DNA of 64,000 bases from an uncultured Bacteroidales bacterium (GCA_964544145.1 CAZJAT010000003.1:7804-71803), one strand, 5' to 3'; shown: positions 30,141 through 58,339, counted from the first letter of the stretch. Made by a program: numbers and translations. The notes: generated by a model from the sequence alone, not told the origin.

Positions 30141-30148
30141 AAGGATTA

Positions 30149-30172
30149 ACGGGGACCCGTTGGGTCCCCGTT
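30149..30172 (-). terminator. GC-rich perfect hairpin between pilQ stop and plsY start
   Basis: ACGGGGACCC-GTT-GGGTCCCCGT, a 9-10 bp stem of perfect complementarity. The U-tract is weak on the minus strand. Confidence 0.35.
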
Positions 30173-30176
30173 TGAT

Positions 30177-31781
30177 TTATTCAATTGTTCTTACAATGTG
30201 CGGGGAGATAAAGATTAATACTTCTTTTGATCTGACAATGGTTTCATCACTCTTAAACAGATGCCCTATAATGGGTATTGATCTTAGAAGAGGAAAACCT
30301 GTCTGTGTTCTTGTTTCCTGATCAAGAACAAATCCACCCATTACTACTGTTTCTCCGTCCTGCACCATTTGAACTGTTTTTGCATTTGTTGTATTTATTG
30401 TAGGTCTTAAACTGGTAGGATCCTGAACTGTTGAAAGTTCTGCTTCAATATCCAATGTGATATCCTTCATTGAGTTAACATGTGGTGTTACATTGAGTAT
30501 GGTTCCAACTGTATACTGTGTATTAACAATATTTCCATTTGCATCAACACTCTGTACAAAGAACTGCTGACCTCCAAGGATATTTGCTTCAGTATTATTT
30601 GTTGCAGTTATACGGGGATTAGACAAAGTTTTTGATTTACCTGAAATCTCCATTGTCTGCAATACAGCATCTATCTGGGCAAAATTTCTTATAGTACCTA
30701 TGCTGACTTCTCCTGATGTGACAGAAACAGGTGTATTAACACCGATGCCGCCTATAACATTTGCCTGGCTCAGACCTATATTGTTTATAGTCCAGTCAAT
30801 ACCCAGACTTCTTGTGATATCATCATTAATCTCAACCACTTTAACTACAATCTCTACCTGAAGATTCTTCTTATCTATCTCGGCAATAATATTCTGAATC
30901 TTTTTATGAACATCATTAATATCCTTCACAACCATTGAATTCGTTCTTTCATCAATAGTTATTACACCTCTTTTAGAGAGTACCGGTTTTAATGAAGCCT
31001 GCATATCTCTGGGAGTTGCATATTCAAGCTTGTACACCTTTGTTAAAAGGGGTAATGATTCCTGCATAGCTGTTTGTTCTGTTGCAAATTCTTTGTAAGT
31101 ACCTACTCTAATCATATTCGGAAATTCTTCATAGGTAAGACCTGCCATTCTGGTTATCAAATCAAACAAATCCTTCCATGGTACATCTTTCACATGAATA
31201 GTCACATTACCTGATACATTATTGGACATTACAAGGTTAATGCCGATATAATCCGCAATACCTCTAAGTAATGTTACAACATCAGCGTTTTCTACATCCA
31301 TTGTAATATTATAATCAGTTTTGAATGTACTGATGTTCTGATCATTTTCTTTTGATGAAGCTGAATGATCTGAAGCAAGCCATGAATCAAATGAACCAGC
31401 TAATGAATTATCCAGCGAAATAACGATATTGTTGCCCTGATATGATTTATTGTATGCATATCTATCACTCAATTCAATCATTATGCGCAGAAAATTTGAT
31501 TCATTATCCTTCATTATTTCTATTGATTTGATTCCTGTTACAGCATCCATTTCATAATACGAACCTGTCAGACCATTGTCTACTGCAATGAGGTCAAACA
31601 CTATGATATCAGGTGCTGTTATGGAAAAATCAGTAAAATTAATGACTTTGTCCATTTCGAGTATTATTTCAGTCTTATTATCTCCTGTAGGAGATACTTT
31701 TATGTCCTGTAGAAGCCCTAATGCTGAAACACTGCTGAATAAAACTATGAGCGTGAGGACAAAGAGTGTTTTCTTTAACAT
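30177..31781 (-). CDS. pilQ: type IV pilus secretin PilQ
   Basis: 534 aa with a signal peptide, N-terminal secretin_N-like domains and a C-terminal secretin domain ('VVMGGFVLDQETRTQTGFPLLRSIPIIGHLFKS...IFISPHIV'). Confidence 0.85.
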   Translation of the reverse strand: MLKKTLFVLTLIVLFSSVSALGLLQDIKVSPTGDNKTEIILEMDKVINFTDFSITAPDIIVFDLIAVDNGLTGSYYEMDAVTGIKSIEIMKDNESNFLRIMIELSDRYAYNKSYQGNNIVISLDNSLAGSFDSWLASDHSASSKENDQNISTFKTDYNITMDVENADVVTLLRGIADYIGINLVMSNNVSGNVTIHVKDVPWKDLFDLITRMAGLTYEEFPNMIRVGTYKEFATEQTAMQESLPLLTKVYKLEYATPRDMQASLKPVLSKRGVITIDERTNSMVVKDINDVHKKIQNIIAEIDKKNLQVEIVVKVVEINDDITRSLGIDWTINNIGLSQANVIGGIGVNTPVSVTSGEVSIGTIRNFAQIDAVLQTMEISGKSKTLSNPRITATNNTEANILGGQQFFVQSVDANGNIVNTQYTVGTILNVTPHVNSMKDITLDIEAELSTVQDPTSLRPTINTTNAKTVQMVQDGETVVMGGFVLDQETRTQTGFPLLRSIPIIGHLFKSDETIVRSKEVLIFISPHIVRTIE

Positions 31782-31799
31782 TTATAACCTCGCTTTTAA

Positions 31800-32369
31800 T
31801 TATTTTTTTGTCGGCGTCTGCAGTCTAATCACCTTGTTCCTGACAACTCCGTATTCCTGCAGTTTGAATATTACTGAATCCTGCTCAATTTTAAGCAAAA
31901 CTCCATTCTTTATTTTCTGACCTTCATAGAAGACATAACCCATTCCTGTTGCATCTTTGAATAATGCCATCCTGCCATTCTTACCTTGAATCATACCATA
32001 ATAGCTGGCAGTTTCTATCTCGATCTGATTAAGACCTTCTCTCTGTAGTTCTAGAACTGAAATGAAAGGGTCTCTTCTGTATTTTGATTTATATGCGTAG
32101 AATTCATTTTTAAAAACTGTGTCTGCTATTGCTTGTGCATTGAATTCCTTAGTTTCTGCATTATCAGAATTTTCTGTAATCTCTTCAGCTGCCTTGTCAT
32201 TTTGAGCAATTAAAGTCATTGATGCAGTTGTTTTATTCGCTTGCACATTATCTTTCTTAACAAATACATTTGTTGTATTCTCCATCATGGCATTAACCGG
32301 ATCTGTATTACAAGAAATAAAAAGCAGCACAACAGTCAAGATAATTAAAATTGTTAATTTATCCTTCAT
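31800..32369 (-). CDS. pilP: pilus assembly lipoprotein PilP
   Basis: 189 aa with lipobox 'LFISCN'. Assigned from its position between pilO and pilQ. Confidence 0.5.
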   Translation of the reverse strand: MKDKLTILIILTVVLLFISCNTDPVNAMMENTTNVFVKKDNVQANKTTASMTLIAQNDKAAEEITENSDNAETKEFNAQAIADTVFKNEFYAYKSKYRRDPFISVLELQREGLNQIEIETASYYGMIQGKNGRMALFKDATGMGYVFYEGQKIKNGVLLKIEQDSVIFKLQEYGVVRNKVIRLQTPTKK

Positions 32370-32944
32370 TTTTTACCGCCTTTTTGGGTATTAGCAGTCC
32401 CTGTGCCCTTAAAGAAGGTTGTAACCCTCATTGATACTGCAATAGAGTATTCACCTTCTGCAGTAGTAGTTGGTTTTATTGATATATCAGAGACTTTATA
32501 GATTCTTGACTGATTGCCCAGTTCCGTTAAATATTGAGCCAGTGAATTAAATGAACCATACAGAGATACATCAAATGCTACAGTTGATGATTCAGCACCC
32601 TTTGATACCGGCAAGGGTGTCAGTTTCTTAATTTTAACTGCATTTCTTTCAGAAAGAATTGTTAATGTATCTATTATTTGTTCAAAGTTCTGTGAATCAG
32701 GCAGCATCTTTTTTGCAATTTCCAGTGTTGCTTCCAATACTCTGAGTTTTTCAATGGTCTCCTGCATTCTACTCGCAACTCTCCTTGCTTCAGCCACCTG
32801 GGTATTGAGTTTATCATATTCGGCATTCATCTCATTTATCTTTGACGCATTCTTAGAATAGTCAAATTTCCAATATAGAAATCCTATTCCGATTATGACA
32901 ACTACTGCTATTATTAAATTTCTTAACAGAGTTTTATCCATCAT
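32366..32944 (-). CDS. pilO: pilus assembly protein PilO
   Basis: 192 aa with a single N-terminal TM followed by a coiled coil. Assigned from operon position. Confidence 0.55.
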   Translation of the reverse strand: MMDKTLLRNLIIAVVVIIGIGFLYWKFDYSKNASKINEMNAEYDKLNTQVAEARRVASRMQETIEKLRVLEATLEIAKKMLPDSQNFEQIIDTLTILSERNAVKIKKLTPLPVSKGAESSTVAFDVSLYGSFNSLAQYLTELGNQSRIYKVSDISIKPTTTAEGEYSIAVSMRVTTFFKGTGTANTQKGGKK

Positions 32945-32953
32945 TACCCCCGA

Positions 32954-33535
32954 TTATTTAAGGAATTTGCAGGATATTGAGAAGCTTATTATATCATAAG
33001 CATCTTCGCGGTTATTAACCATTTCCTTCAAATCCACTGATTCTCCGTCAATAAAGTCATTCATTTTCTTCAACTCAGCGAGGAAATCCGTAATCTTAAG
33101 ATTTGAAAATGATTTGCCTTCAATTATAAGAGAACTTCCTTTAATCGACATGCTTTCCAGCCAGAGATAATCAGGTATATTCTTGCTCAATGTATCAAAG
33201 AATTTGGGAAATGTAAATTTCCCGACAGCCAACTTCTTGATTGTATCAATTTTCTGATTGATTTCTGTCTGCTTAGCTTTCATATTTTCTACTTTCTTCT
33301 TCTCTTCTTGGAGCTTTTTCAGCTCTGAGCGTTTTTCCTCGATTTTAACATCAAGCCGCTTAATAGAACCGGTTTGCGAAAAGTGTACAATAACCATCAC
33401 AATAATTAAAACAACGAATACACCCAAACCGGCATACAGCATCATATTACCCGGCATATTAAATGAGAAAGTCGGCATCGATAGCTCTTTCCTCCGTTTT
33501 TTCTTCTCATCAGGCAATAAATTTATTTCTATCAT
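32954..33535 (-). CDS. pilN: pilus assembly protein PilN
   Basis: 193 aa with the conserved N-terminal 'INLLP' motif, a single TM and a coiled coil. Confidence 0.7.
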   Translation of the reverse strand: MIEINLLPDEKKKRRKELSMPTFSFNMPGNMMLYAGLGVFVVLIIVMVIVHFSQTGSIKRLDVKIEEKRSELKKLQEEKKKVENMKAKQTEINQKIDTIKKLAVGKFTFPKFFDTLSKNIPDYLWLESMSIKGSSLIIEGKSFSNLKITDFLAELKKMNDFIDGESVDLKEMVNNREDAYDIISFSISCKFLK

Positions 33536-33549
33536 TTTTAACCTCTTTG

Positions 33550-34575
33550 TTAAGATCTCATACTAAGGCCGAGTGAAGGAACAAGCAGTGGTGCTACTTT
33601 TTCAATCTCATCAAGTGCAAAAAGGCCTTCTTTGATTTTGATTTTCTTAAAAGCATCTAGCTTTTCAACATCTGTTTCAAATCTATTTTTAAAGAAATCA
33701 ACAATACCTTTTGCATTTGAACCGCCGCCGGAAATAATAATATTATCAATTCTATCCATGTTTGTAAAGGGCAATGCTCTTTCCACATTCACTGCCAATT
33801 CGTCAAAGAATGACTGTAAGCCCTCTTCAATAATCTCCGGTGATAAATCTGCTACCTCTTCGCCTTTAAATATATTATCAATTTGTTCCTTAGTTGCTCC
33901 GGGTATTTTCTGCAGAGTTGATTTAATTGCAGTGGTAACATCCCTTGTAAATAAGTTCTGTTCTCCCTGAATAAAAGAAAGGATTGTGGTTTCATACCCT
34001 ATATGAAGCAGAGCATACATCTTATCAGGTTCTGGTTCATAGTTCATTTCAAAACAATTTTGAATTGTAAATGCGGGTACATCGACAACCACAGGTATAA
34101 GGTCAATTTCTTCAATTAAATCAATGAAAGGCATAAGAATTTCCTTCTTAGCAGCAACAAGCAGTACATCAATCTTGCCTTCTTCATCCGATGGACCCAG
34201 TATTTTGTAGTCAATCTGAACATCCTCAATACCATAAGGAATATTGTTTTCAGCTTCCTGTTTAATCAAAATTGATAATTCGGATTCTTTCATTTTGTCC
34301 ATCTTGATTTTCTTTACAATAACGCCTCTTCCCAATAGAGCAGTGCTCGTTTCCTTGATTTTAACCTCTTTTGACTGAAGCAGATTCTTAACAGTATCAA
34401 CCAATGCCAATCTGTCCATAACCTCACCGTCCGCTATAGATCCATCAGATAATTCGGTTATGCCATAATCTTTAAGCATGGGTTCATTACCGGACAAATC
34501 AAGCATTGAATACTTGATATAGGAACTGCCGATATCCAAACCCATAATCACTTTTTTCCTTTTCTTAACAGCCAT
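33550..34575 (-). CDS. pilM: type IV pilus assembly ATPase-fold protein PilM
   Basis: 341 aa with an actin-like fold. It has the N-terminal 'GLDIGSSYIKY' motif and 'IISGGGS'. Confidence 0.85.
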   Translation of the reverse strand: MAVKKRKKVIMGLDIGSSYIKYSMLDLSGNEPMLKDYGITELSDGSIADGEVMDRLALVDTVKNLLQSKEVKIKETSTALLGRGVIVKKIKMDKMKESELSILIKQEAENNIPYGIEDVQIDYKILGPSDEEGKIDVLLVAAKKEILMPFIDLIEEIDLIPVVVDVPAFTIQNCFEMNYEPEPDKMYALLHIGYETTILSFIQGEQNLFTRDVTTAIKSTLQKIPGATKEQIDNIFKGEEVADLSPEIIEEGLQSFFDELAVNVERALPFTNMDRIDNIIISGGGSNAKGIVDFFKNRFETDVEKLDAFKKIKIKEGLFALDEIEKVAPLLVPSLGLSMRS

Positions 34576-34587
34576 ATAACCGTCCTT

Positions 34588-34785
34588 TTAATTTTCAATA
34601 AACTTTTTGATTTCTCTTCCCTGAATATGCCATCTCCTCCCTATCTTCTTGCCCCGTAACATCATTGTTCTAAGATGCCGGCGCACTGTCTGAGTAGAGA
34701 CATTGAGGATCTGCGATACTTCCTCTACATTGTAGAATTTGGCAGTATCAATTTTCTTTAAAGATATAGCCATTTTGTGCCTCAC
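34588..34785 (-). CDS. small helix-turn-helix DNA-binding protein (excisionase/MerR-like HTH_17 family)
   Basis: 65 aa, 'YNVEEVSQILNVSTQTVRRHLR..G..I..R' pattern. It sits immediately upstream of pilM in the same orientation. Confidence 0.5.
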   Translation of the reverse strand: MRHKMAISLKKIDTAKFYNVEEVSQILNVSTQTVRRHLRTMMLRGKKIGRRWHIQGREIKKFIEN

Positions 34786-34860: not shown

Positions 34861-34901
34861 TAAAAAAATTATAAAGCAAACCCCGCATTTAAGCGGGGTT
34901 T
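34861..34901 (-). terminator. rho-independent terminator downstream of the oxidoreductase operon
   Basis: AAACCCCGC-ATTTAA-GCGGGGTTT hairpin, followed on the minus strand by TTTATAATTTTTTT. Confidence 0.5.
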
Positions 34902-34914
34902 AGTTCATTAATGT

Positions 34915-37900
34915 TTATAAAATATTTATCTTATTAAGTGAATTGGGGAATGATGCCCGTTTCTTGATATTCTCCGGGACATTAATTCTGTCATTTATGA
35001 AATCCCCATTATCAGGGATTTCCTGCTTAAAGAAATCGGTATTTAAATGTTTCATTACACCCTGCAGCATCTCAATATTGCTGAATGCAAGATCATTTAT
35101 AACCTTATTCCTCTTTACAGTCCTGTATTCAGCATTGATTTGAGTACCGGATTCTGCATAAGGTGCATTAATCCGGATATAATCAGAATTGCCATCAGGA
35201 TTCATGAAACTCACAATCATTCCGGTATCCCTGTGAGCAAGATATGAAATTGTCCTTTCAGATATATTATCATTGTCTTCAAGCAGAGCATTCATTGCTG
35301 ATGCATTACTGCCTCTTCCCATGTATAACATCCTTGCATCGATTTTTCCTGCAATTACTCTAATCTTTTCATCGCCACCATTCATCAATGAAGTATATGA
35401 TGCTATTATCACTTTACTGCCATTAAACTTATACTCAGCAATCTCCTTATAATCATCTGTTTCAACATATATATCAGCAATTTTGCTAATATCCTTATTG
35501 GGACTGCCATAATATGATAATGAAGCACCATTTTTCCTTGCTCTGTTTATCATAGGCATAATCATTGGAGTATCCTCAAAGGGATTAATGCCTGCCAGAA
35601 CTATATTGTTGCATAGTTCAATATCTTTGTATGTGATATCACTCTTGAGCACTGACATCCTATTTGCAGGGATTATTTTAACACCTGCTTTATCTGCAAT
35701 TGCTTTTAATAAGTATATCTCTTCTAAAGTAGCTGTTTCCCCTACAATAATATCTGATTTATTCTTTAAAATATAATCAGCCATTAATTTAGCAGTTTTA
35801 TCCAATCCAATTTCACCATGCTTATCCATAATTGCTTTATTTATCTCAATAAAACCGAATCTGCTGCGTTTACAGATATTGCCGAAAAGATTTACTTTTG
35901 AATCCTGTTTGCCTTTTATACCCACAATCTTGTTTCCCATTGTTTTAACTTCAATTTCACATCCAAATGAACAAAAGGGACAAACCGTTTCTTTTGTTTC
36001 CAATTTAAATGGTCCCGGCTTTTTGGTGTATGGTTTTATTACTATCGCGCCTGTGGGACATACATCTGCACATAAGCCACATGATATACAGGATGTTTCG
36101 GTTAATGCCTTGCCCAACGGAGGTTGGACAACAGTTTTATACCCTCTATTGACCAATCCCAGCACAGATAAGCCAACAACCTCTTTACATATGCGCACAC
36201 ATCTTGCGCATGAAATGCATTTATTCGGCTCAAGTGTTATAAATGCATGTCTGTCATCTGGAGTCATATCCTTAAAAGTGCCCCTGTAATTGGTCTGGTC
36301 CACATCATACTTTGCTGCATTATCCTTCAATTCACAGTCAAACACAGATTTACATCCGCATTCCAGACATCTGTCAGCTTCCTTGCAAGCCATGTCTTCA
36401 CTGAACCCTGTTTCAACTTCATTCATACTGCTTATGCGTTCATCCGCTTTCAATTTGGGCATCTCCATTTTCTCTTTCTTTTCAAAGTCAGAATAATCTG
36501 CTTCAATCTGTTGTTTCAGATTATCCTTTTTTGAATAAAAATCTTCAGGGTAAGGAATAATATCACCTGTTGAAATGTATTTATCAATAACCCATGCAGC
36601 TTTCTTACCATCAGCAATTCCGCCAATAACAGTATCTGCTCCGCGCCTGAAATCGCCTCCTGCAAAAATCCCTTCAACATCTGTCATAAATGTTTTTTCA
36701 TCTGTTTCTATTGTCTGCCATCTGGTAAATTTCAACTCATTGTTAATGCTGCTCGGATCATCACTGATGCATTTTATGTCTCCCTTCTGCCCTATAGCAA
36801 AAATTACTGCACTTGCCTGCATCTCATACTCACTGTTTTCCTTAGGTATAGGACGGCGCCTTCCGCTGGCATCAGGTTCACCCAATTCCATCTTAATACA
36901 TTTTAAACCAATCACTTTATTATTGTTATCTGTGATTACCTCAATGGGATTTGACAGGACTTCAATATTAATGCCTTCATCTATTGCATCCTCTATTTCA
37001 GTTTCATGTGCAGGCATTTCTTTGATTGTTCTTCTGTAAACCATAGTAACGTCAGCTCCAAGCCGTTTGGAAATTCGTGCAGCATCTATGGCAGTATTAC
37101 CTCCGCCTACAATGATAACATGTTTACCGATATTTGTGTTTTTATTTGATGCAGCATTATGGAGAAATTCAATTCCTCCAAGCACACCCTCTGCATCTTC
37201 ACCCTTGATACCCATGAATTGGCAGTCATGTGCGCCCAATGCAATATATATTGCGTCATATTTACGTTTTTTCAGTGAATCCAGTGTAAAATCCTCACCC
37301 AATGTCTGATTATAATGTATAGTGGGACCTAGATCAGTAATCTGTTTGATTTCAATATCCAATATTTCATTAGGTAGTCTATATTCAGGTATCCCATATC
37401 TCAGCATTCCGCCCGCTTTATCATATTGCTCGTATAAATCAACATCATAGCCCTTTAATGCAAGATAATAAGCAGCAGAAAGTCCTGAAGGCCCGGCTCC
37501 GACAATACCTACCTTTTTTCCATTTTTGCTAAGTGTTTCAGGTACATAGGTATACTCTGATGCAAGGTCTCTGTCAGAAGCATATCGTTTTAAGAAATCT
37601 ATACCTACCTTTGAATCTACAAGGTTTCTTCTGCATTCATCCTCACAGGGTCTTGTACACACTCTTCCGCATACTGCAGGCATAGGATTGTCTCTTTTGA
37701 TAATTTTTATTGCTTCAGTATAATCACCCTCTGCAATTGCAGCAATATATCCCTGAACATCTACATTGGAAGGACACGTATTGAAACACGGACCTGCACA
37801 ATCAGCATAATGATTGGAAAGCAGAAGTTCTAATGCCATTTTTCTCTGTTTCCATATATTCTCAGTATCCGTTTTTATCTTCATTCCTTCTGCAATCTTT

Positions 37901-38100
37901 GTTCCGCATGCAAGTGAATATCTCTTTTTCGCACCTTCTATTTCAACTGAACAGAGAAAACATGATCCATAAGGTTCAAGCTGTTCATGAAAACATAGTG
38001 TGGGTATGTCAATTCCATTTGCCTTACATATATCCAGAACTGTCATTCCCTTTTCTCCGATATACTCTTTATTATTTATCTGTAATTTAATTTTTTCCAT
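34915..38100 (-). CDS. NuoG-like large subunit fused with a GltD-type NAD(P)H flavin oxidoreductase and a truncated molybdopterin-oxidoreductase-like domain
   Basis: 1061 aa. The N-terminal 2Fe-2S fold is 'C..GSCFLCSV...C'. The GltD/DPD-type Fe-S region is 'MPAVCGRVCTRPCEDEC'. Two Rossmann dinucleotide sites are present ('IVGAGPSGLSAAYYLA', 'IIVGGGNTAIDAA'), followed by 4Fe-4S ferredoxin motifs. Then comes an Fdh/NuoG-type 'CPFCSFGCEIEV...C' cluster and about 350 aa of MopB-like sequence that is too short for a full Mo-bisPGD domain. No H-cluster motifs were found. Confidence 0.7.
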   Translation of the reverse strand: MEKIKLQINNKEYIGEKGMTVLDICKANGIDIPTLCFHEQLEPYGSCFLCSVEIEGAKKRYSLACGTKIAEGMKIKTDTENIWKQRKMALELLLSNHYADCAGPCFNTCPSNVDVQGYIAAIAEGDYTEAIKIIKRDNPMPAVCGRVCTRPCEDECRRNLVDSKVGIDFLKRYASDRDLASEYTYVPETLSKNGKKVGIVGAGPSGLSAAYYLALKGYDVDLYEQYDKAGGMLRYGIPEYRLPNEILDIEIKQITDLGPTIHYNQTLGEDFTLDSLKKRKYDAIYIALGAHDCQFMGIKGEDAEGVLGGIEFLHNAASNKNTNIGKHVIIVGGGNTAIDAARISKRLGADVTMVYRRTIKEMPAHETEIEDAIDEGINIEVLSNPIEVITDNNNKVIGLKCIKMELGEPDASGRRRPIPKENSEYEMQASAVIFAIGQKGDIKCISDDPSSINNELKFTRWQTIETDEKTFMTDVEGIFAGGDFRRGADTVIGGIADGKKAAWVIDKYISTGDIIPYPEDFYSKKDNLKQQIEADYSDFEKKEKMEMPKLKADERISSMNEVETGFSEDMACKEADRCLECGCKSVFDCELKDNAAKYDVDQTNYRGTFKDMTPDDRHAFITLEPNKCISCARCVRICKEVVGLSVLGLVNRGYKTVVQPPLGKALTETSCISCGLCADVCPTGAIVIKPYTKKPGPFKLETKETVCPFCSFGCEIEVKTMGNKIVGIKGKQDSKVNLFGNICKRSRFGFIEINKAIMDKHGEIGLDKTAKLMADYILKNKSDIIVGETATLEEIYLLKAIADKAGVKIIPANRMSVLKSDITYKDIELCNNIVLAGINPFEDTPMIMPMINRARKNGASLSYYGSPNKDISKIADIYVETDDYKEIAEYKFNGSKVIIASYTSLMNGGDEKIRVIAGKIDARMLYMGRGSNASAMNALLEDNDNISERTISYLAHRDTGMIVSFMNPDGNSDYIRINAPYAESGTQINAEYRTVKRNKVINDLAFSNIEMLQGVMKHLNTDFFKQEIPDNGDFINDRINVPENIKKRASFPNSLNKINIL

Positions 38101-38109
38101 TGTATCCTC

Positions 38110-39900
38110 CTACTTGACATCTACAGCATCAAATGGACATACCCGCAGGCAGTTTCCGCATTTGATACATGCATCCTGATTAATTTGATAAGGAGTTTCT
38201 TTGTCTCCGGTTATCACATTGACCGGGCAGTTTTTGGCACATATACCGCATTTTTTACATTTATCTGCATCAATAGTAAACTCAATAAGTTCTTTGCACA
38301 CCTTTGCAGGGCATTTTTTTTCTAATATATGAGCCTCATATTCATCCCTGAAATATTTAATTGTAGTAATTACAGGATTTGGTGCTGTCTGTCCCAAGCC
38401 GCATAATGATGATTCCTTAACCATATCAGCTAATTCCTCTAATTTATCAATATCCTCCATTTTACCTTTACCTTCAACAATTCTTGTCAGTATTTCATGC
38501 ATCCTCTTTGTACCAACCCTGCAGAATGTACATTTACCACATGATTCATTCTGTGTAAAATTAAGAAAATATCTTGCAACCTCTACCATGCAAGAATCCT
38601 CATCCATAATAACCATTCCGCCTGAGCCCATTATTGCACCAGTCGCATTCAGTGAATCATAATCAACAGGTGTATCAATAAGATGCTCTGGAATACATCC
38701 CCCAGATGGTCCGCCAACCTGTATTGCTTTAAATTTTTTACCATTAAGAATGCCTCCTGCTACATCATAGATAATCTCTCTCAAGGTTATACCCATCGGC
38801 ACTTCAGCCAATCCTGTGCGATTAATCTTTCCTGATAATGAGAAAGCTTTGGTCCCCTTTGATTTAGAAGCCCCAATTGAAGCATATTTATTTGCTCCAT
38901 TCCTGATAATCCAGGCAATATTAGCAAAGGTTTCCACATTATTAATATTTGTGGGTTTCCCCCATATTCCGCTTTCAGCAGGGAATGGAGGTCTAATCTT
39001 CGGCATACCTCTCTTTCCTTCTATTGAAGCCATTAATGCTGTTTCTTCACCGCATACAAAAGCACCAGCTCCCTCTTTTACTTTAAGATTGAACGAAAAA
39101 TCAGAATTAAGTATATTATTGCCAAGGTAACCCTTATTGACCGCTTCTTTGATGGCAAGCTTTAATCGTTTAACTGCTAAAGGATATTCTGCTCTGCAGT
39201 ATATGTATCCTTCAGTACATCCTATTGCATAAGCAGCAATAGTCATTCCTTCAATTACATTATAAGGATCTCCCTCTAATATACCCTTGTCCATAAATGC
39301 ACCGGGATCACCCTCATCTGCATTGCACACCAGATATTTCATATCGCCCTTTGACTTGCGGGCAAAATTCCATTTTACACCTGTAGGGAAACCTGCTCCG
39401 CCTCTTCCCCTAAGCCCGGATTCTGTAATTTCCTTTATAACATCCTCAGGTGTCATGGATTTAATGATTTTCTCCAATGCAGCATAGCCATTTGATTCAA
39501 TAAAATCATTAAATGATTCCGGATTTATTACTCCCGTCCTTTCCAAAACAATTCTATACTGCTTTTTAAAAAGATCTTCTTCACTACCCTTTTTGTCGGA
39601 TGATTTGACAATAAGTTTTTCTACAGGATTGCCATTTAGAACATGCTCGTTGAAAATCTTTTCTGCCTTTTTAACATCAACTCCGCCATAAAGCGTTTTT
39701 ATATTATTTTCCATATCCTCAATCTCTACCAATGGCTCCTTATAGCACATACCTATACAACCTGTTTCATCCAGCTTGATATCAATATTTTTCTCTTTCA
39801 ATAATTCATCCAGTTTCTCATATACAGGTTTTGCTCCTGCTGCTATTCCGCAGGAACCCATACCGACTGTTATCCTTATTTTATTCATCAATGCCTCCAC
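38110..39900 (-). CDS. NuoF-like NADH-binding flavoprotein subunit of bifurcating type (N-terminal thioredoxin-like 2Fe-2S domain, C-terminal 2x[4Fe-4S])
   Basis: 596 aa with 'GLRGRGGAGFPTGVKW' (FMN/NADH), 'ESCGKCTFCRVG' (N3 cluster), and C-terminal 'CKKCGICAKNCP' plus 'CIKCGNCLRVCP' motifs. The N-terminal 'GSCG...GCIGMC' domain resembles HydB/HndC. Confidence 0.85.
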   Translation of the reverse strand: MEALMNKIRITVGMGSCGIAAGAKPVYEKLDELLKEKNIDIKLDETGCIGMCYKEPLVEIEDMENNIKTLYGGVDVKKAEKIFNEHVLNGNPVEKLIVKSSDKKGSEEDLFKKQYRIVLERTGVINPESFNDFIESNGYAALEKIIKSMTPEDVIKEITESGLRGRGGAGFPTGVKWNFARKSKGDMKYLVCNADEGDPGAFMDKGILEGDPYNVIEGMTIAAYAIGCTEGYIYCRAEYPLAVKRLKLAIKEAVNKGYLGNNILNSDFSFNLKVKEGAGAFVCGEETALMASIEGKRGMPKIRPPFPAESGIWGKPTNINNVETFANIAWIIRNGANKYASIGASKSKGTKAFSLSGKINRTGLAEVPMGITLREIIYDVAGGILNGKKFKAIQVGGPSGGCIPEHLIDTPVDYDSLNATGAIMGSGGMVIMDEDSCMVEVARYFLNFTQNESCGKCTFCRVGTKRMHEILTRIVEGKGKMEDIDKLEELADMVKESSLCGLGQTAPNPVITTIKYFRDEYEAHILEKKCPAKVCKELIEFTIDADKCKKCGICAKNCPVNVITGDKETPYQINQDACIKCGNCLRVCPFDAVDVK

Positions 39901-40359
39901 TTAATAGGATTTTAGTATACTGCGGATTTTGTCAGGTGTCAGTTTACCATGCACCTCGCCGTCAATCATAATAACTGGGGCAAGAGAACAGCATCCTAAA
40001 CATGCCACTTCTTCAACAGTGAACTTACCATCTGCTGTTGTACCATAATCTTTAAGTTTCAATTCTTCTAAAACAACATCAAGCACTGTATCGGCACCAA
40101 TAACATGACATGCCGTACCTTGACATATTTTAATATTATGCTCACCCGGTTTTTCCATCTTAAATTGAGAATAAAATGTAGTTACACCATAAATATCACT
40201 TTCTGCATATTCTGTATTGCCTGCGATTTCTTCAATGGATTCCTTGGATATATACCGGAACACGTCCTGAACATCCTGTAGAATGGGGATCAAAGCCCCC
40301 TTTTTGTCCTTGTATCTTTCAACAATATCAAGAACTGTTATCTCTTTTTTACCGCTCAT
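39901..40359 (-). CDS. NuoE-like 2Fe-2S thioredoxin-fold subunit
   Basis: 152 aa with 'CQGTACHVIGA' and 'CLGCCSLAPVIMIDG'. Confidence 0.85.
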   Translation of the reverse strand: MSGKKEITVLDIVERYKDKKGALIPILQDVQDVFRYISKESIEEIAGNTEYAESDIYGVTTFYSQFKMEKPGEHNIKICQGTACHVIGADTVLDVVLEELKLKDYGTTADGKFTVEEVACLGCCSLAPVIMIDGEVHGKLTPDKIRSILKSY

Positions 40360-40444
40360 TTTATAACTCCTTAATAATTAAAATATATGAAATTATTAAA
40401 AAAATTACATTAACATAATGCCCCATTCTTGTCAATATATATAT

Positions 40445-41377
40445 AGGGCCGTATGTCTATTTTTGTAACCTTTTTATAATAGAATTAACTGTTTTTCTTG
40501 AAAGTTTCAAAGTAAAAGCAATTTCTGATTGTTTGAATCCTAAATTATATAAAGAAAATATTAGTATATTTCGTTTATCAATAATTCCCCTATTCCATTT
40601 TTTGTTATAAAGTATACTATCATTGATATTTAGCTGCTTACAGAGTGTATTTATAGATATTTGAATATTCTTAGATTTCGTCCTTCTTCTATTAGGATTT
40701 CTTTGTTTATATCTACTATAATTTCTTTTGTTTATTGTCAAATAATCATCTTCAGTCCCCACATAATATTCTTCTTTATTATAATAACTTTCAATTTCTT
40801 TATTTATCTTATTTTCATCTATAAATCTCGTTATTTTTATTTTTGTTGATTTTTTCCGTTTCATTTTATATATATGTGCGCTTGAGTATGCATATTCATA
40901 TGGATATTTTACAATATGCGTTCTTATGGGATTGTCATGTATATAAGCTATAACCGAATTGTAGTAAAACTCTCCTAGGATAATAAATGATTTATATCTT
41001 CCCTGAAACACATGTCCACAAAGTGAATATTTCTCATTAAAATACATTGCATATATCGTATTTATTCTGTGCATGAATCCTGATATATCGAGCGTTTTCC
41101 TTCTAATTAGAAGGTGTACATGATTTCTCATTAAACAATATGCGATTACCTCAACATCATATTGAGTTAAAGCATAATTAGCAATTTCGCAATATTTATC
41201 CATATCATATTTGGAAAAGAATATTGGATTTTTTCTCTGTCCTCTTGAAATTATATGATAAACTGAACCTTCTATTTCCAGTCTCGTATCTCTCGCCATA
41301 TAAACCCCCTTTTGTTATATTTTACTTATTTTTTGACAAAATGCAATAAAAGGTTACAAAAATAGACATACGGCCCT
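40445..41377. mobile_element. RAYT/IS200-family Y1 transposase element bounded by perfect 30-bp terminal inverted repeats
   Basis: 40445-40474 reads AGGGCCGTATGTCTATTTTTGTAACCTTTT and its exact reverse complement lies at 41348-41377. The enclosed single gene encodes an HUH Y1 transposase-like protein. Flanking sequence is TATA-rich on both sides, which may be a target duplication. Confidence 0.7.
40457..41299 (-). CDS. REP-associated tyrosine transposase-like (Y1 HUH, IS200/IS605 Transposase_17 family) with C-terminal HTH extension
   Basis: 280 aa. The N-terminus matches RAYT signatures in order: 'YHIISRGQRKNPIF', 'AYCLMRNHVHLLI' (HUH), 'GHVFQGRYKS' and 'YIHDNPIR' (catalytic Tyr region). The extra ~110-aa basic C-terminus ends in the HTH 'FKQSEIAFTLKLSRKTVNSIIKRL'. 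The stop codon lies inside the left inverted repeat. Confidence 0.75.
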   Translation of the reverse strand: MARDTRLEIEGSVYHIISRGQRKNPIFFSKYDMDKYCEIANYALTQYDVEVIAYCLMRNHVHLLIRRKTLDISGFMHRINTIYAMYFNEKYSLCGHVFQGRYKSFIILGEFYYNSVIAYIHDNPIRTHIVKYPYEYAYSSAHIYKMKRKKSTKIKITRFIDENKINKEIESYYNKEEYYVGTEDDYLTINKRNYSRYKQRNPNRRRTKSKNIQISINTLCKQLNINDSILYNKKWNRGIIDKRNILIFSLYNLGFKQSEIAFTLKLSRKTVNSIIKRLQK

Positions 41378-41518: not shown

Positions 41519-41986
41519 TTGTTGAACAGCATCATATATCAGATGGTCGGGAATGTGGACACAACAGAGGATCTTACACAGGAAGCATTTATCAAATGCT
41601 TCAAGAAACTGAACTCATATAATTGCAAATACTCATTCAAATACTGGCTTATTTCTATTGCGAGAAACAATGCAATTGACTATTTGAGAAAACAGAAGTC
41701 AGTTATTGATATTGACAGTGTGAACCCATCCCTTCTGTCATATGAGGATAAAGATAAAGCATTACAGAATGAAACATCCTCTATGATTAATGAGGCAATG
41801 AGTAAACTCAGCGAAGAGGATAGGACAATTTTATTTTTAAAATATCATGAACAGTACAAAAATCCGGAGATTTGTAAAATTATGGATATGGATGATAAAA
41901 ATATCCGCATAAAACTTTACAGGGCAAAAAGTAAATTAAGGGATATAATGAATTCAATGGATTATTTTGCCAAACAAGAGGTGTGA
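41519..41986 (+). CDS. ECF-type RNA polymerase sigma-70 factor (N-terminus probably begins upstream at a non-canonical start)
   Basis: Region 2 'YQMVGNVDTTEDLTQEAFIKCFKKL' and region 4 'EDRTILFLKYHEQYKNPEICKIMDMDDKNIRIKLYRAKSKLR' are present. The in-frame upstream sequence 'ALIRNDKEIVQDILDGNKGSFSLLIDRYEHLL' aligns to region 2.1 of ECF sigmas but contains no ATG/GTG/TTG. A GGAGG at 41425-41429 precedes an ATC at 41435. Confidence 0.7.
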   Translation: MLNSIIYQMVGNVDTTEDLTQEAFIKCFKKLNSYNCKYSFKYWLISIARNNAIDYLRKQKSVIDIDSVNPSLLSYEDKDKALQNETSSMINEAMSKLSEEDRTILFLKYHEQYKNPEICKIMDMDDKNIRIKLYRAKSKLRDIMNSMDYFAKQEV

Positions 41987-42498
41987 TTATGGAAAAAAAA
42001 TGGGAATTGCTTGAAAAATATTTTGATAATGAATTGAGTGAGAAAGAACAGAAGAAGCTCAATCAGTTGATGCAGAATGATGAAGAATTATATAATGAAT
42101 TCATTCAAATGCAGACCATTCACGATGATATCAAGACAATTGTACTTCCAATATTTAATAGTAAGAAAAAAGATATCTTGAATATTGTAGATTATATTCA
42201 ACCTGATAAGAAAAGGAAATTTTTATATGCATTACCAGTTTTATTTAGTTATTCTATTATTACCACACTCTTTATAATAGCTAAATTTAAAGATATAATA
42301 TTTTCATTCACATGGAATAATGCAAAGGGAATAATTGTCACCATAATGGAAATCATGTCAAAAATTTCAATCATATTTGCTGAATTGGATTTTCATACAA
42401 TGTTAATCATGTGTATGATACCTATTATGTCTGTAATTATTACTTTTAGTTCAGGTTATTTCATAAAAAAGGAAATTAATAAAGGAGGAAACAGATGA
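41983..42498 (+). CDS. putative anti-sigma factor (membrane-anchored)
   Basis: 171 aa with an N-terminal cytoplasmic helical domain (MIMEKKWELLEKYFDNELSEKEQKKL...), a TM segment and a short C-terminus. Its start overlaps the sigma stop (ATGA). Confidence 0.5.
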   Translation: MIMEKKWELLEKYFDNELSEKEQKKLNQLMQNDEELYNEFIQMQTIHDDIKTIVLPIFNSKKKDILNIVDYIQPDKKRKFLYALPVLFSYSIITTLFIIAKFKDIIFSFTWNNAKGIIVTIMEIMSKISIIFAELDFHTMLIMCMIPIMSVIITFSSGYFIKKEINKGGNR

Positions 42499-43496
42499 AA
42501 AAATATTTTATTCTGTTAATAAGCATTTTACTAATTCTTGCTTTCAGCATGGTTATCTCTGCTGATGAAATGACATTAGATGAAAGTACCGGTGACTCAG
42601 AGGATTTTTCTTTAAGCATTGACTTAGGCAGTGACTCTATCTATTCTGATGATCTTGTTTCAGTTGGAGGAAACTTAGATGTGAAAGGCACAGTTGATGG
42701 TGATGTAATAGGTATTGGCGCTCTTGTTTATATAAATGGTCATATAACAGGCGACCTTGTTTTAATTGGTTCCAGCGGAGAGATTGATTCAAATACAGTC
42801 GTTGACGGTGAATTCATAACATTAGGTTCATTTATTGATATGGATGAGAATGTTGAATTGAGCGGTCCGGTAACTCATGTCAATCTCGGTCCATTCCAGA
42901 AATTTTTTGGTTTAAAATACAAACCTTCAGCAATTCAAAAGAGTTACGCTGCAGGATCACTTATCAGTTCAATTGCAAAGTTTATTGCAATCTTTCTTCT
43001 CGGCTCTCTGGTACTGCTTTTATTTAAGAAATTCAAGAGAATTGAGGAAACTATAGTTCTTAATCCCCTTAGAGCATTTCTAATAGGATTACTTGCAGAG
43101 ATTCTTATAATACCTGCTATATTAGTTCTGACAATAAGTATAATAGGAATTCCATTCATCCCTGTTTTTATATTAATTATTTTTATCGGAGTTTTTATTG
43201 GCTCTGTTATATTAATACATATGTTAGGATCTTTCATATTCAATGAATTTAAAAAGAATGGTCTTCACTTCACAATGAATCTTCTCCTAGGTTTACTTAT
43301 TTTGTCCCTATTCCCGCTGCTCAGCAAAATAGGCATGTGGTTCAGCATAGATTGGCTTAGCAATTTATTTGGAATCATTTCCTTTATACAATGGTATATC
43401 ATAATAACATATGCTTTTGGTGTTATGGTACTAACTCGATTTGGAACGCGGATATATAATCCGAGATTGCAAATTACATCTGATTCTTCTGATTAA
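42495..43496 (+). CDS. membrane protein with N-terminal extracytoplasmic beta-helical repeat domain (DUF4097/bactofilin-like) and C-terminal multi-TM region
   Basis: 333 aa with a signal peptide and repeated 'G.v.GDv.liGs.GeI' beta-strand motifs, followed by 4-5 TM helices. It is third in the sigma/anti-sigma operon, with a GGAGG Shine-Dalgarno site. Confidence 0.45.
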   Translation: MKKYFILLISILLILAFSMVISADEMTLDESTGDSEDFSLSIDLGSDSIYSDDLVSVGGNLDVKGTVDGDVIGIGALVYINGHITGDLVLIGSSGEIDSNTVVDGEFITLGSFIDMDENVELSGPVTHVNLGPFQKFFGLKYKPSAIQKSYAAGSLISSIAKFIAIFLLGSLVLLLFKKFKRIEETIVLNPLRAFLIGLLAEILIIPAILVLTISIIGIPFIPVFILIIFIGVFIGSVILIHMLGSFIFNEFKKNGLHFTMNLLLGLLILSLFPLLSKIGMWFSIDWLSNLFGIISFIQWYIIITYAFGVMVLTRFGTRIYNPRLQITSDSSD

Positions 43497-58122: not shown

Positions 58123-58339
58123 TCTTTCACACCTCCATAGTCATGGGTTAATGGGCTTTTCATAATTTTTTTCATTCCTAAGAAACACATAATTACTCCT
58201 TATTTGTGTGAAAAAAATTATATATATTTCTATGTAAAATGCAATAGGTATCATACTTCATTACAAAGTCACGGGGAATAGTAAACTTACGGATAACTAT
58301 TATCACTATAAAGTACTTTTTGTTTAAAATGGTAATAAA

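What the first reader, a model, noticed from the sequence alone, without database searches (positions are those of the whole stretch)
34915..40359. NuoE-NuoF-(NuoG::GltD::MopB-remnant) oxidoreductase: bifurcating-type flavoprotein module with a large subunit that is neither a hydrogenase nor a complete formate dehydrogenase
The NuoF homolog has the extra N-terminal 2Fe-2S and C-terminal 2x[4Fe-4S] domains that mark flavin-based electron-bifurcating HydB/HndC-type subunits. The 1061-aa partner fuses a NuoG-type 2Fe-2S N-terminus, a complete GltD/SfrB-like NAD(P)H-FAD module (MPAVCGRVCTRPCE, two Rossmann sites), ferredoxin clusters and an Fdh/NuoG-type CxxCxxxC..C cluster. It then has only about 350 aa of MopB-like sequence, and no [FeFe]-hydrogenase H-cluster motifs (TSCCP/MPC) are present. 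This resembles SfrAB/NfnAB-like NAD(P)H-ferredoxin transhydrogenases attached to a NuoEF module. The substrate is unclear.
Basis: partly seen in the sequence, partly recalled or inferred. Interest (0 to 1): 0.55.

Follow-up and report, generated by a model that had tools for sequence, protein, structure and literature searches.

The report
NfnABC/StnABC electron-bifurcating transhydrogenase operon
These three genes encode an ordinary member of an enzyme family that is already characterised and structurally solved (NfnABC, also called StnABC), which balances the cell's NADH, NADPH and ferredoxin pools by flavin-based electron bifurcation; here it sits in an uncultured WOR-3 bacterium.

Summary
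Three co-oriented genes on the minus strand (nuoE-like 152 aa, nuoF/HydB-like 592 aa, and a 1061-aa NuoG-like protein with an inserted GltD domain) form a compact operon with ribosome-binding sites and a strong terminator.

The complex is not an orphan, though.

- **Sequence:** all three subunits hit, as their best PDB matches, the three solved NfnABC/StnABC complexes (C. saccharolyticus 9bov, S. ovata 8oh5, T. sibiricus 9n5u).
- **Fold:** the AlphaFold model of the large subunit superposes on them along the whole chain (query-normalised TM-score 0.74-0.80).
- **Signatures:** every family signature I could test is present. These are the HxxxCxxxCxxxCP and CxxCxCx5C junction motifs, the 3Cys+Lys A7 cluster, the GxGxxA/YRR NADPH site, the FMN/NAD loops, the 3Cys+His B2 site, the B3/B4 ferredoxin domain and the C1 cluster.
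- **C-terminal remnant:** the "MopB remnant" is the family's known cofactor-less NuoG/Fdh-like domain. Here it is slimmed and fast-evolving, but its length is within the published range (898-1241 aa).

Predicted reaction: 2 NADPH + NAD+ + Fd(ox) <-> 2 NADP+ + NADH + Fd(red).

Verdict: a new member of a known kind, of low interest.

The parts
40407..40435 (-). Candidate promoter upstream of nfnC (TTGACA, 17 nt, TAATGT), followed by an AAGGAG ribosome-binding site at 40367-40372.
   Evidence: Read directly from the sequence. The -10 hexamer is too weak to pass the consensus scan, and promoter-like sites in the region are not above the shuffled background. This part is therefore tentative.
39901..40359 (-). 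nfnC / stnA (BfuC): a NuoE-like 152-aa subunit with the C1 [2Fe-2S] cluster (C79, C84, C120, C124).
   Evidence: PF01257, E 1.8e-49. The best PDB hits are 9n5u_C, 9bov_C and 8oh5_A, each about 153 bits.
38110..39888 (-). nfnB / stnB (BfuB): a NuoF/HydB-like 592-aa subunit. Residue numbers below count from the ATG start; add 4 for the GTG-ORF numbering that the tool outputs use.
- N-terminal thioredoxin-like B5 site: C13, C44, C48, E51.
- FMN/NAD loops: GLRGRGGAGFP and TGAIMGSGG.
- B1 [4Fe-4S]: C450, C453, C456, C496.
- B2 site: C433, H520, C526, C531.
- C-terminal B3/B4 2x[4Fe-4S] domain.
   Evidence: PF01512 and PF10589. The best PDB hits are 9n5u_B, 8oh5_B and 9bov_B at 846-852 bits, with residue-level alignments. 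The GGAGG-N5-ATG start is and the 592-aa gene call.
37813..38100 (-). nfnA / stnC, aa 1-96: NuoG/HydA-type N-terminal [2Fe-2S] domain (A1 cluster; C36, C47, C50, C65).
   Evidence: PF13510, E 2e-17. The Cys residues are invariant in 35 homologues.
36334..37812 (-). nfnA, aa 97-589: inserted GltD/NfnL-like NADPH-FAD module with the A6 and A7 [4Fe-4S] clusters.
- Junction motifs: H97-x3-C101-x3-C105-x3-C109-P and C578-x2-C581-x-C583-x5-C589.
- A7 ligands: C109, C148, C152, K171.
- FAD motif GAGPSG; NADPH motif GGGNTA plus YRR at 355-357; R234.
   Evidence: PF14691 and PF07992. NF009454 matches aa 1-641 at 678 bits. The motif definitions come from PMC7483475, PMC10482914 and PMC11829005.
35836..36333 (-). 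nfnA, aa 590-755: NuoG-type Fe-S region. It holds two ferredoxin-like [4Fe-4S] clusters (A2 and A4; C628/631/634/638 and C671/674/677/681) and the Fdh/NuoG-type cluster A5 (C707, C710, C714, C743).
   Evidence: PF22117 and PF04879. All 12 Cys residues are invariant.
34915..35835 (-). nfnA, aa 756-1061 plus the stop codon: a vestigial, cofactor-less NuoG/Fdh (MopB)-like domain. It is about 180 aa shorter than in the roughly 1250-aa majority class, through scattered deletions.
   Evidence: - No Pfam hit when scanned alone.
- AF2 model of aa 690-1061 has pLDDT 88.
- The best folds are complex I NuoG C-terminal domains, TMq 0.70-0.76.
- This domain is included in the whole-chain match to NfnA/StnC.
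- Deletions are mapped.
- Identity to homologues is 46/24/16% here against about 75/66/50% elsewhere in the protein.
34877..34902 (-). Intrinsic terminator closing the operon: a 10-bp stem with 6 GC pairs, followed by a T-rich tail. It lies 13 nt after the nfnA stop codon.
   Evidence: the sequence itself is shown.

Best explanation
The locus is an nfnCBA (= stnABC) operon. It encodes a soluble, flavin-based electron-bifurcating NADH-dependent ferredoxin:NADP+ oxidoreductase of the BfuABC family.

**Mechanism, by homology to the solved enzymes**
1. NADPH donates a hydride to the FAD in the GltD/NfnL-like insert of the large subunit.
2. Electrons pass one at a time along A7 (3Cys+Lys), A6, A3, A2 and A1 to the B1 cluster of the NuoF-like subunit.
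3. The B1-FMN-C1 'flavobicluster' in the NuoF/NuoE-like core bifurcates them.
4. High-potential electrons reduce NAD+ at the FMN.
5. Low-potential electrons leave through the mobile C1 [2Fe-2S] domain of the NuoE-like subunit to B3/B4, and from there to ferredoxin.

Overall reaction: 2 NADPH + NAD+ + Fd(ox) <-> 2 NADP+ + NADH + Fd(red).

In a fermentative WOR-3 bacterium the physiological direction is probably the reverse (confurcation), making NADPH for biosynthesis from NADH plus reduced ferredoxin.

The A4-A5 branch and the C-terminal MopB-like domain are a non-catalytic evolutionary remnant with a structural role.

**Shown here:** gene structure, domain architecture, conservation of every cofactor ligand, and whole-chain fold identity with the solved enzymes.

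**Inferred:** cofactor occupancy, substrates, direction of the reaction and oligomeric state.
For: 1. **Operon.** Three consecutive genes lie in the order nuoE-like, nuoF-like, GltD::NuoG-like, with GGAGG ribosome-binding sites and a terminator. This is the gene order of S. ovata stnABC (PMC7483475).
2. **Sequence matches.** The best PDB matches of each subunit are the three characterised complexes. The large subunit scores 718 bits (9bov_A), 630 (8oh5_C) and 609 (9n5u_A). The B subunit scores 846-852 bits and the C subunit about 153 bits.
3. **Fold.** The AF2 model of the large subunit aligns along more than 1050 columns with 9bov_A (TMq 0.80), 8oh5_C (0.79) and 9n5u_A (TMq 0.74, TMt 0.82). 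The next hits are GltD/NfnL-only chains.
4. **Family signatures.** These are present and invariant in 35 homologues:
   - HxxxCxxxCxxxCP and CxxCxCx5C junction motifs;
   - A7 ligands C109, C148, C152 and K171, where the Lys is essential in S. ovata and T. sibiricus (PMC10482914, PMC12018979);
   - R234;
   - GxGxxA and YRR.
5. **B subunit.** It carries the NAD/FMN loops GLRGRGGAGFP and TGAIMGSGG, identical to Csac NfnB (PMC11829005). It also has the B2 3Cys+His site, whose His marks Bfu-type B subunits (PMC12018979), and the B3/B4 domain.
6. **Conservation.** The three-gene module recurs in a Calditrichia MAG. In a WOR-3 relative the nfnB-nfnA pair is seen with the same downstream genes; that contig starts inside nfnB, so nfnC cannot be assessed there.
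Against: - No biochemical data exist for this protein.
- The B subunit alone does not discriminate Nfn-type from hydrogenase-type Bfu cores. It is 61-63% identical to NfnB/StnB and also 61% identical to NiFe-HydB (computed from sequences hand-copied). The assignment therefore rests on the large subunit.
- The clade containing this protein differs from the characterised bacterial enzymes at the auxiliary Cys next to A7 (S. ovata C114), which is V or I in all 35 homologues here.
- The same clade has a much reduced and divergent C-terminal domain, the part that mediates tetramerisation in S. ovata and C. saccharolyticus.
- A close archaeal homologue (T. litoralis NsoABC) was originally described as an NADPH:sulfur oxidoreductase.
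- No ferredoxin, PFOR or other partner gene lies in the window.
Confidence: 0.87

Rival explanations
1. Nso-type reading. The complex is an NADPH-dependent oxidoreductase that dumps electrons on sulfur, polysulfide or another non-nicotinamide acceptor, as first reported for T. litoralis NsoABC, and is not a physiological transhydrogenase.
For: NsoC is one of the closest homologues of StnC/NfnA and, like this protein, has a partial C-terminal domain (PMC10482914; PMC7483475). The dead-end A4-A5 branch is retained with all its Cys residues.
Against: The near-identical T. sibiricus enzyme was shown to be a tightly coupled Nfn (PMC9304861, PMC12018979). The authors of PMC7483475 argue that Nso itself probably works as an Nfn. 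The full bifurcating BC core (B2 His, B3/B4, mobile C1) is conserved here, which would be unnecessary for a simple NADPH:sulfur reductase.
Confidence: 0.05
2. A Bfu-family complex with a different third substrate or nucleotide specificity. For example, the GltD-like domain might use NADH, or might dock an unknown partner through the slimmed C-terminal domain, so the enzyme is not an NADP-linked transhydrogenase.
For: The C-terminal domain is highly divergent (16-46% identity against 50-75% elsewhere). The S. ovata C114 equivalent is replaced by V or I across this FCB-type clade. Nucleotide specificity was not tested here.
Against: GxGxxA (GGGNTA) and the YRR motif are invariant, as in the NADPH-specific StnC/NfnA (PMC7483475). 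No extra subunit gene lies in the operon, which has its own terminator. The low conservation of the C-terminal domain argues for relaxed constraint, not a new function.
Confidence: 0.05
3. An NAD-linked formate dehydrogenase (FdsABG-like) or an [FeFe]-hydrogenase (HydABC-like). Many database entries for homologues are annotated this way ('formate dehydrogenase major subunit').
For: Homologues carry automatic annotations as formate dehydrogenase. The Fdh-type Fe4S4 domain PF04879 is present.
Against: - No PF00384, PF01568 or PF02906 match.
- No H-cluster motifs, no Cys/Sec-His dyad and no conserved Cys after C743.
- The C-terminal fold matches cofactor-less NuoG domains.
- Pterin is absent from the solved homologue (PMC11829005).
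- S. ovata Stn has no formate:MV activity (PMC7483475).
Confidence: 0.01

Closest known systems
NfnABC (Nfn-Bfu) of Caldicellulosiruptor saccharolyticus, PDB 9bov/9bp5 (PMC11829005)
   Same: - Same three subunits.
- The large subunit has A1-A7 cluster ligands, including A4 and the 3Cys+Lys A7.
- The FAD/NADPH insert is the same.
- The B5 site has the 3Cys+Glu motif and the B2 site the 3Cys+His motif.
- The NAD/FMN loops are identical.
- Best sequence hit (718 bits) and best fold hit (TMq 0.80).
   Different: - This NfnA is 117 aa shorter (1061 against 1178 aa), all of it in the Fdh/NuoG-like C-terminal domain.
- HMMER does not align the C-terminal roughly 300 aa.
- The auxiliary Cys next to A7 is Val115 here.
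- The host is an uncultured WOR-3 bacterium, not a thermophilic Firmicute.
- The oligomeric state is unknown.
StnABC of Sporomusa ovata, PDB 8oh5/8oh9 (PMC7483475, PMC10482914)
   Same: Same gene order (nuoE-like, nuoF-like, GltD::NuoG-like), same junction motifs, Lys170/Arg239 equivalents (K171, R234) and GxGxxA. The Fdh-like domain is catalytically inactive and the two Fe-S clusters of the dead-end branch (StnC clusters C1 and C2) are regarded as remnants.
   Different: The C-terminal domain here is shorter, lacking about 110 aa of the domain that mediates S. ovata's tetramer. C114 is replaced by V115. The operon is not next to Wood-Ljungdahl genes; it lies between an IS200-like transposase gene and the pilMNOPQ genes.
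NfnABC of Thermococcus sibiricus, PDB 9n5u/9n5v (and T. litoralis NsoABC)
   Same: The reduced C-terminal domain is a precedent for short NfnA forms. This is the best B-subunit hit (852 bits) and has the longest large-subunit sequence alignment (aa 2-835). TMt is 0.82.
   Different: The T. sibiricus NfnA (955-963 aa) lacks the A4 cluster cysteines, whereas this protein keeps all four (C638, C671, C674, C677). That host is an archaeon; this one is a bacterium.
Classical NfnAB/NfnSL and SfrAB
   Same: The GltD/NfnL-like NADPH-FAD domain with two [4Fe-4S] clusters is shared (296 bits to 4ylf_B, 292 bits to 5jca_L). SfrB/SfrA share the Fer2_4+GltD and NuoG-like parts.
   Different: - There is no NfnS/NfnA small subunit.
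- The FAD-proximal cluster has Lys instead of the Glu ligand.
- In this family bifurcation takes place at the FMN flavobicluster of the NuoEF-like core, not at the FAD.
- SfrAB has no NuoEF module.

Membership tests
Nfn-Bfu / StnABC electron-bifurcating transhydrogenase | Three adjacent genes: NuoE-like, NuoF-like with extra N- and C-terminal domains, and a GltD::NuoG fusion. | tested here: met
   The order is the same as SOV_1c07740-07760 (PMC7483475). The triad is conserved in the Calditrichia MAG; the WOR-3 relative's contig shows only nfnB-nfnA because it starts inside nfnB.
Nfn-Bfu / StnABC electron-bifurcating transhydrogenase | NfnL/GltD-like FAD-NADPH module inserted into a NuoG-like protein, flanked by the HxxxCxxxCxxxCP and CxxCxC...C motifs. 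| tested here: met
   H97/C101/C105/C109-P110 and C578/C581/C583/C589 are all invariant in 35 homologues. NuoG model TIGR01973 is split at aa 103/585.
Nfn-Bfu / StnABC electron-bifurcating transhydrogenase | FAD-proximal [4Fe-4S] cluster (A7) ligated by 3 Cys plus a strictly conserved Lys; conserved Arg near the FAD. | tested here: met
   C109, C148, C152 and K171 align to Csac C108, C147, C151 and K170. K171 and R234 are invariant. Actual metal coordination was not tested.
Nfn-Bfu / StnABC electron-bifurcating transhydrogenase | NADP(H)-type second nucleotide motif (GxGxxA). | tested here: met
   GGGNTA at 332-337 and YRR at 355-357 are invariant. That these motifs confer NADPH preference is inferred from PMC7483475 and from what is generally known of GltD-type domains.
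Nfn-Bfu / StnABC electron-bifurcating transhydrogenase | Bfu-type BC core: FMN/NAD loops, B1 [4Fe-4S], B2 3Cys+His site, B3/B4 ferredoxin domain, N-terminal thioredoxin-like B5 site, and C1 [2Fe-2S] in the NuoE-like subunit. | tested here: met
   Residue-level alignments to 9n5u_B, 8oh5_B, 9bov_B and to the C chains are; positions are. ORF numbering, as in the tool outputs, is used here: B1 C454/457/460/500; B2 C437/H524/C530/C535; B5 C17/C48/C52/E55; C1 C79/84/120/124.
Nfn-Bfu / StnABC electron-bifurcating transhydrogenase | Whole-chain fold of the large subunit equals that of NfnA/StnC, including the cofactor-less Fdh/NuoG-like C-terminal domain. | tested here: met
   Foldseek gives TMq 0.80, 0.79 and 0.74 to 9bov_A, 8oh5_C and 9n5u_A over 1053-1142 columns. 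The model has pLDDT 76.5 overall and 80-92 in the C-terminal domain.
Nfn-Bfu / StnABC electron-bifurcating transhydrogenase | Catalytic activity: NAD+-dependent reduction of ferredoxin by NADPH, and the reverse reaction. | not testable with these tools
   This needs purified enzyme. It is inferred from homology only.
Mo/W-bisPGD formate dehydrogenase (FdhF/FdsA type) | Complete MopB catalytic domains (PF00384 plus PF01568) and a Sec/Cys-His active-site dyad. | tested here: not met
   - No PF00384 or PF01568 hit, even at E<=10 on the isolated C-terminus.
- No in-frame TGA and no Cys-His.
- The only Cys after C743 is non-conserved.
- The fold matches cofactor-less NuoG domains.
[FeFe]-hydrogenase HydABC (FeFe-Bfu) | H-cluster domain (PF02906; motifs TSCCP, MPCxxK, ExMACxxGCxxG). 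| tested here: not met
   No Pfam hit and none of the motifs is present.
Classical NfnAB / NfnSL | Two-subunit enzyme with an NfnS (FNR-like, FAD + [2Fe-2S]) partner, and a Glu ligand on the FAD-proximal cluster. | tested here: not met
   No NfnS-like gene lies in the operon or in the parts of the window that were scanned. The Glu position is Lys171.
Respiratory complex I (NuoEFG module) | Association with the NuoBCDI and membrane subunits; a NuoF without extra Fe-S domains; a NuoG without a flavin insert. | tested here: not met
   The neighbours are a transposase gene and pilMNOPQ. NuoF carries the extra N- and C-terminal domains and NuoG carries a 480-aa GltD insert. Only this 64-kb window could be examined.

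The most novel reading that the evidence does not exclude
The WOR-3/FCB-type clade of NfnA might be a functionally distinct subtype. Its features are V or I in place of the A7-adjacent Cys, a pared-down and rapidly evolving C-terminal domain, and retained A4-A5 clusters. Such a subtype could be an obligate monomeric heterotrimer whose dead-end A4-A5 branch has become an entry or exit port for an additional, unidentified redox partner. That would add a fourth substrate to a Bfu enzyme.
Probability: 0.05. Interest if true: 0.5.

Novelty: new member of a known kind. Interest (0 to 1): 0.15.

Why it matters
The practical value is in annotation. Homologues in public databases are widely mislabelled 'formate dehydrogenase major subunit', 'FAD-dependent oxidoreductase' or 'molybdopterin-dependent oxidoreductase'. 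Genome-based metabolic reconstructions of WOR-3 and related candidate phyla could therefore wrongly infer formate metabolism, or miss the NADH/NADPH/ferredoxin coupling step.

The locus also shows that Nfn-Bfu, described as mainly a Firmicute and Euryarchaeota enzyme (PMC9304861), occurs as a conserved operon in FCB-group candidate phyla. The form found there is a slimmed C-terminal domain that still keeps the A4 and A5 clusters. That is a natural 'deletion series' for asking what the vestigial Fdh-like domain is for.

None of this changes what is known about the mechanism.

Tried and rejected
1. **rnf operon hypothesis.** The sizes of the downstream ORFs (341/193/192/189/534 aa) first suggested rnfDGEAB, which would have made a NuoEF-Rnf hybrid. 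Pfam shows they are pilM, pilN, pilO, an ORF with no Pfam hit (presumably pilP) and the pilQ secretin. A terminator separates them from nfnA. Rejected.
4. **Organism identity.** This was obtained instead from Rho, which is 92% identical to that of a candidate division WOR-3 MAG.
Identities are 61-63% to NfnB/StnB and 61% to NiFe-HydB, and the bit scores are close (846-852 against 820). This test is not decisive; the large subunit decides.
6. **Pfam scan of the isolated C-terminus at E<=10**. It found nothing, so homology had to be shown by fold.
8. **Consensus promoter scan.** Promoter-like sites are not enriched over shuffles (25 found against 28 expected), and the hand-found TTGACA/TAATGT pair is only tentative.
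9. **Literature search** for WOR-3 together with Nfn found no paper on this lineage's enzyme.

Full report
**Observation**

The minus strand between 34915 and 40359 carries three tightly packed ORFs (translations).
- The first (39901-40359, 152 aa) is a NuoE-type thioredoxin-like [2Fe-2S] protein (PF01257, E 1.8e-49).
- The second is a NuoF homologue (PF01512, PF10589). It has a C-terminal 2x[4Fe-4S] ferredoxin domain and a weakly recognisable N-terminal thioredoxin-like domain.
- The third (34915-38100, 1061 aa) combines, in order, PF13510 (2Fe-2S), PF14691 plus PF07992 (the GltD/DPD-type Fe-S and FAD/NAD(P)H module), PF22117 (the Nqo3 ferredoxin-like domain) and PF04879 (the Fdh/NuoG Fe4S4 domain).

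NCBIfam splits the NuoG model around a roughly 480-aa insert: aa 4-103 and aa 585-877 match NuoG-type models, and aa 1-641 match PRK12814.

No H-cluster motif, no in-frame stop and no PF02906, PF00384 or PF01568 hit is found.

Reading the junctions gives the operon boundaries.
- The stop codon of the first gene is followed by GTGGAGGCATTGATG. The GTG 'start' at 39900 is therefore part of the ribosome-binding site, and the real start is the ATG at 39888 (592 aa). This agrees with the ENA gene call.
- The third gene has its own GGAGG site.
- Thirteen nucleotides after the third gene's stop codon lies a 10-bp GC-rich hairpin with a T tail (34877-34902).

The three genes are thus a self-contained operon.

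**What it is**

Each subunit was compared with all PDB sequences. In every case the top three hits are the three solved electron-bifurcating transhydrogenases: NfnABC of Caldicellulosiruptor saccharolyticus (9bov), StnABC of Sporomusa ovata (8oh5) and NfnABC of Thermococcus sibiricus (9n5u).

| Subunit | Bits to the three NfnABC/StnABC complexes | Next-best hits |
|---|---|---|
| Large (A) | 718, 630, 609 | classical NfnL/GltD chains, up to 296 bits, covering only aa 103-516 |
| NuoF-like (B) | 846-852 | NiFe-HydB 820; FeFe-HydB 666-764; non-bifurcating FdsB/Nqo1 414-440 |
| NuoE-like (C) | about 153 | — |

An AlphaFold2 model of the large subunit was built on 35 homologues (mean pLDDT 76.5; C-terminal domain 80-92). 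Foldseek superposes it on 9bov_A, 8oh5_C and 9n5u_A over 1053-1142 columns, with query-normalised TM-scores of 0.80, 0.79 and 0.74. All further hits are GltD/NfnL/DPD chains that cover only the insert.

**Family signatures**

The literature defines the family by several features, and each was checked.

1. *Junction motifs.* Kremp et al. [quoted passage not shown] They give two junction motifs, HxxxCxxxCxxxCP and CxxCxC...C, and a GxGxxA NADP(H) motif. Here these are H97/C101/C105/C109-P110, C578/C581/C583/C589 and G332-G-G-N-T-A337. All are invariant in 35 homologues.
2. *The A7 cluster.* The cryo-EM papers show that the FAD-proximal cluster A7 is ligated by three Cys and a Lys. The Lys is essential: K170 in S. 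ovata and C. saccharolyticus, K165 in T. sibiricus (PMC10482914; PMC11829005; PMC12018979). The alignment puts C109, C148, C152 and K171 at these positions. K171 and the functionally important Arg (R234) are invariant.
3. *The other clusters of the large subunit.* The ligands of A1 (C36/47/50/65), of A2 and A4 (two CxxCxxCxxxC motifs) and of A5 (C707/710/714/743) are all present and invariant. This protein is therefore like the bacterial enzymes with seven clusters, not like T. sibiricus NfnA, which lacks A4 (PMC9304861).
4. *The B subunit.* The NAD/FMN loops GLRGRGGAGFP and TGAIMGSGG are letter-for-letter those described for Csac NfnB. The B1 cluster, the B2 3Cys+His site and the B3/B4 motifs are present. 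[quoted passage not shown]
5. *The B5 site.* The N-terminal site has three Cys plus a Glu. This is the composition that binds Zn in the C. saccharolyticus structure; the site is also Zn in T. sibiricus, but was modelled as [2Fe-2S] in S. ovata.
6. *The C subunit.* It has the four C1 ligands.

**The 'MopB remnant'**

The final roughly 306 aa give no Pfam hit even at E<=10. More distant homologues of about 1130-1250 aa still score on PF00384 (the Pfam lists).

Relative to those homologues, this protein has lost about 180 aa in scattered deletions. Identity to homologues in this region is 46/24/16% for the closest, intermediate and distant groups. The rest of the protein gives about 75/66/50%. 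This pattern is that of a domain under relaxed constraint.

The only Cys in the region (C830) occurs in 1 of 35 sequences, and there is no Cys-His or Sec.

Modelled alone (aa 690-1061, pLDDT 88), the domain best matches the cofactor-less C-terminal domain of complex I NuoG/75-kDa subunits (TMq 0.70-0.76). It also matches 9bov_A, and no catalytic formate dehydrogenase appears in the top 50.

The published structures agree with this.
- The pterin site is incomplete and empty in Csac NfnA.
- The A4-A5 branch (StnC clusters C1 and C2 in S. ovata) is called an evolutionary remnant.
- S. ovata Stn shows no formate:methyl viologen activity.

Published StnC homologues range from 898 to 1241 aa, including 1071-aa forms, so 1061 aa is not unusual.

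**Mechanism (by homology)**

NADPH reduces the FAD in the insert. Electrons travel through A7, A6, A3, A2 and A1 to B1. The B1-FMN-C1 flavobicluster bifurcates them: NAD+ is reduced at the FMN, and ferredoxin is reduced through the mobile C1 domain and B3/B4 (PMC11829005, PMC12018979, PMC10482914). The stoichiometry is 2 NADPH + NAD+ + Fd(ox) -> 2 NADP+ + NADH + Fd(red), and the reaction is reversible (PMC7483475). I infer that in this organism it mainly runs towards NADPH formation. This was not tested.

**Host and context**

The contig is a metagenome scaffold (ENA ERZ23495300, MUDA16-1 scaffold_32). Its Rho protein is 92% identical to that of a candidate division WOR-3 MAG.

In a WOR-3 MAG (GCA_034189245.1), the closest named NfnA (64% identical) lies in the same arrangement: nfnB-nfnA-HTH-pilMNO-(unknown ORF)-pilQ-plsY. 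That contig has the same length as the longest one recorded for the 92% Rho hit, so it is probably the same genome. A Calditrichia MAG has the same nuoE-nuoF-nfnA triad in a different neighbourhood.

The rest of the window is housekeeping: Rho, MreB, PBP2, RodA, CorA, MATE, TPR proteins and glycosyltransferases. It holds no ferredoxin, PFOR, hydrogenase or classical nfnAB gene.

**Differences from the characterised enzymes**

1. The C-terminal domain is slimmed and divergent while A4 and A5 are retained. This is intermediate between the T. sibiricus form and the S. ovata / C. saccharolyticus forms. That domain mediates tetramerisation in the latter two enzymes, so a monomeric heterotrimer is plausible but untested.
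2. The Cys next to A7 (S. ovata C114, whose mutation halves activity) is V or I in all 35 homologues sampled.
3. The lineage is different.

These are variations within a family, not a new kind of enzyme.

**Limits**

- The B subunit alone cannot separate Nfn-type from hydrogenase-type Bfu cores. It is 61-63% identical to both (computed from sequences hand-copied).
- Cofactor occupancy, substrates and the direction of the reaction are inferred.
- The promoter is only tentatively located.
- Only 64 kb of the genome was visible.

**Verdict**

The system is a new member, from an uncultured WOR-3 bacterium, of the already characterised Nfn-Bfu/StnABC transhydrogenase family. Interest is low. The main value is correcting the widespread 'formate dehydrogenase' mis-annotation of its homologues.

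Noticed in passing
window 40457-41299 (-): A 280-aa ORF with an IS200-like Y1 transposase domain (PF01797, aa 13-123) lies immediately upstream of the nfn operon. It is about twice the usual length for this family, so it carries a C-terminal extension of unknown nature. Whether relatives have it at this position could not be seen, because the relative's contig starts inside nfnB.
   Followed up: partly
window 34588-34773 (-): A small 61-aa HTH_17 (excisionase/MerR-like) gene with its own TTGACA...TATAAA promoter-like site lies between the nfnA terminator and pilM. It is conserved at the same place in the WOR-3 relative (L003 3658-3843), which suggests a regulator of the pil operon.
   Followed up: partly
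window 29517-34575 (-): A type IV pilus assembly cluster: pilM, pilN, pilO, a 189-aa ORF with no Pfam hit (probably pilP) and the pilQ secretin (with AMIN domain), followed by plsY. A secretin implies a diderm envelope in this WOR-3 bacterium.
   Followed up: partly
window 41519-43496 (+): An ECF-type sigma factor (155 aa; Sigma70_r2 and r4_2) is followed by two overlapping ORFs (171 and 333 aa) without any Pfam match. This may be a sigma / anti-sigma / effector module, transcribed divergently from the transposase gene.
   Followed up: no
window 22852-25419 (+) and 14670-18440 (+): An 855-aa ORF has no Pfam match at E<=1e-5. It lies at the end of a plus-strand gene string that begins with a 1256-aa TPR-repeat protein and a 387-aa TPR protein.
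   Followed up: no
NfnA residue 115 (window about 37756-37758) and alignment A2: The position equivalent to S. ovata StnC Cys114 is Val or Ile in all 35 homologues sampled from FCB-type and other metagenomic lineages. In S. ovata this Cys lies next to the Lys-ligated cluster, and its mutation halves activity.
   Followed up: partly
one search hit list (homologues P0013-P0120): Dozens of NfnA/StnC homologues of about 1250 aa in JGI and NCBI are labelled 'formate dehydrogenase major subunit/subunit alpha' or 'molybdopterin-dependent oxidoreductase'. This looks like a systematic mis-annotation of this family.
   Followed up: no
window 7544-7616 (-), 12481-12555 (+), 58339-58415 (-): Three tRNA genes: Gly-CCC, Met-CAT and Pro-GGG. 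No other Rfam family reaches its gathering score in the window.
   Followed up: yes
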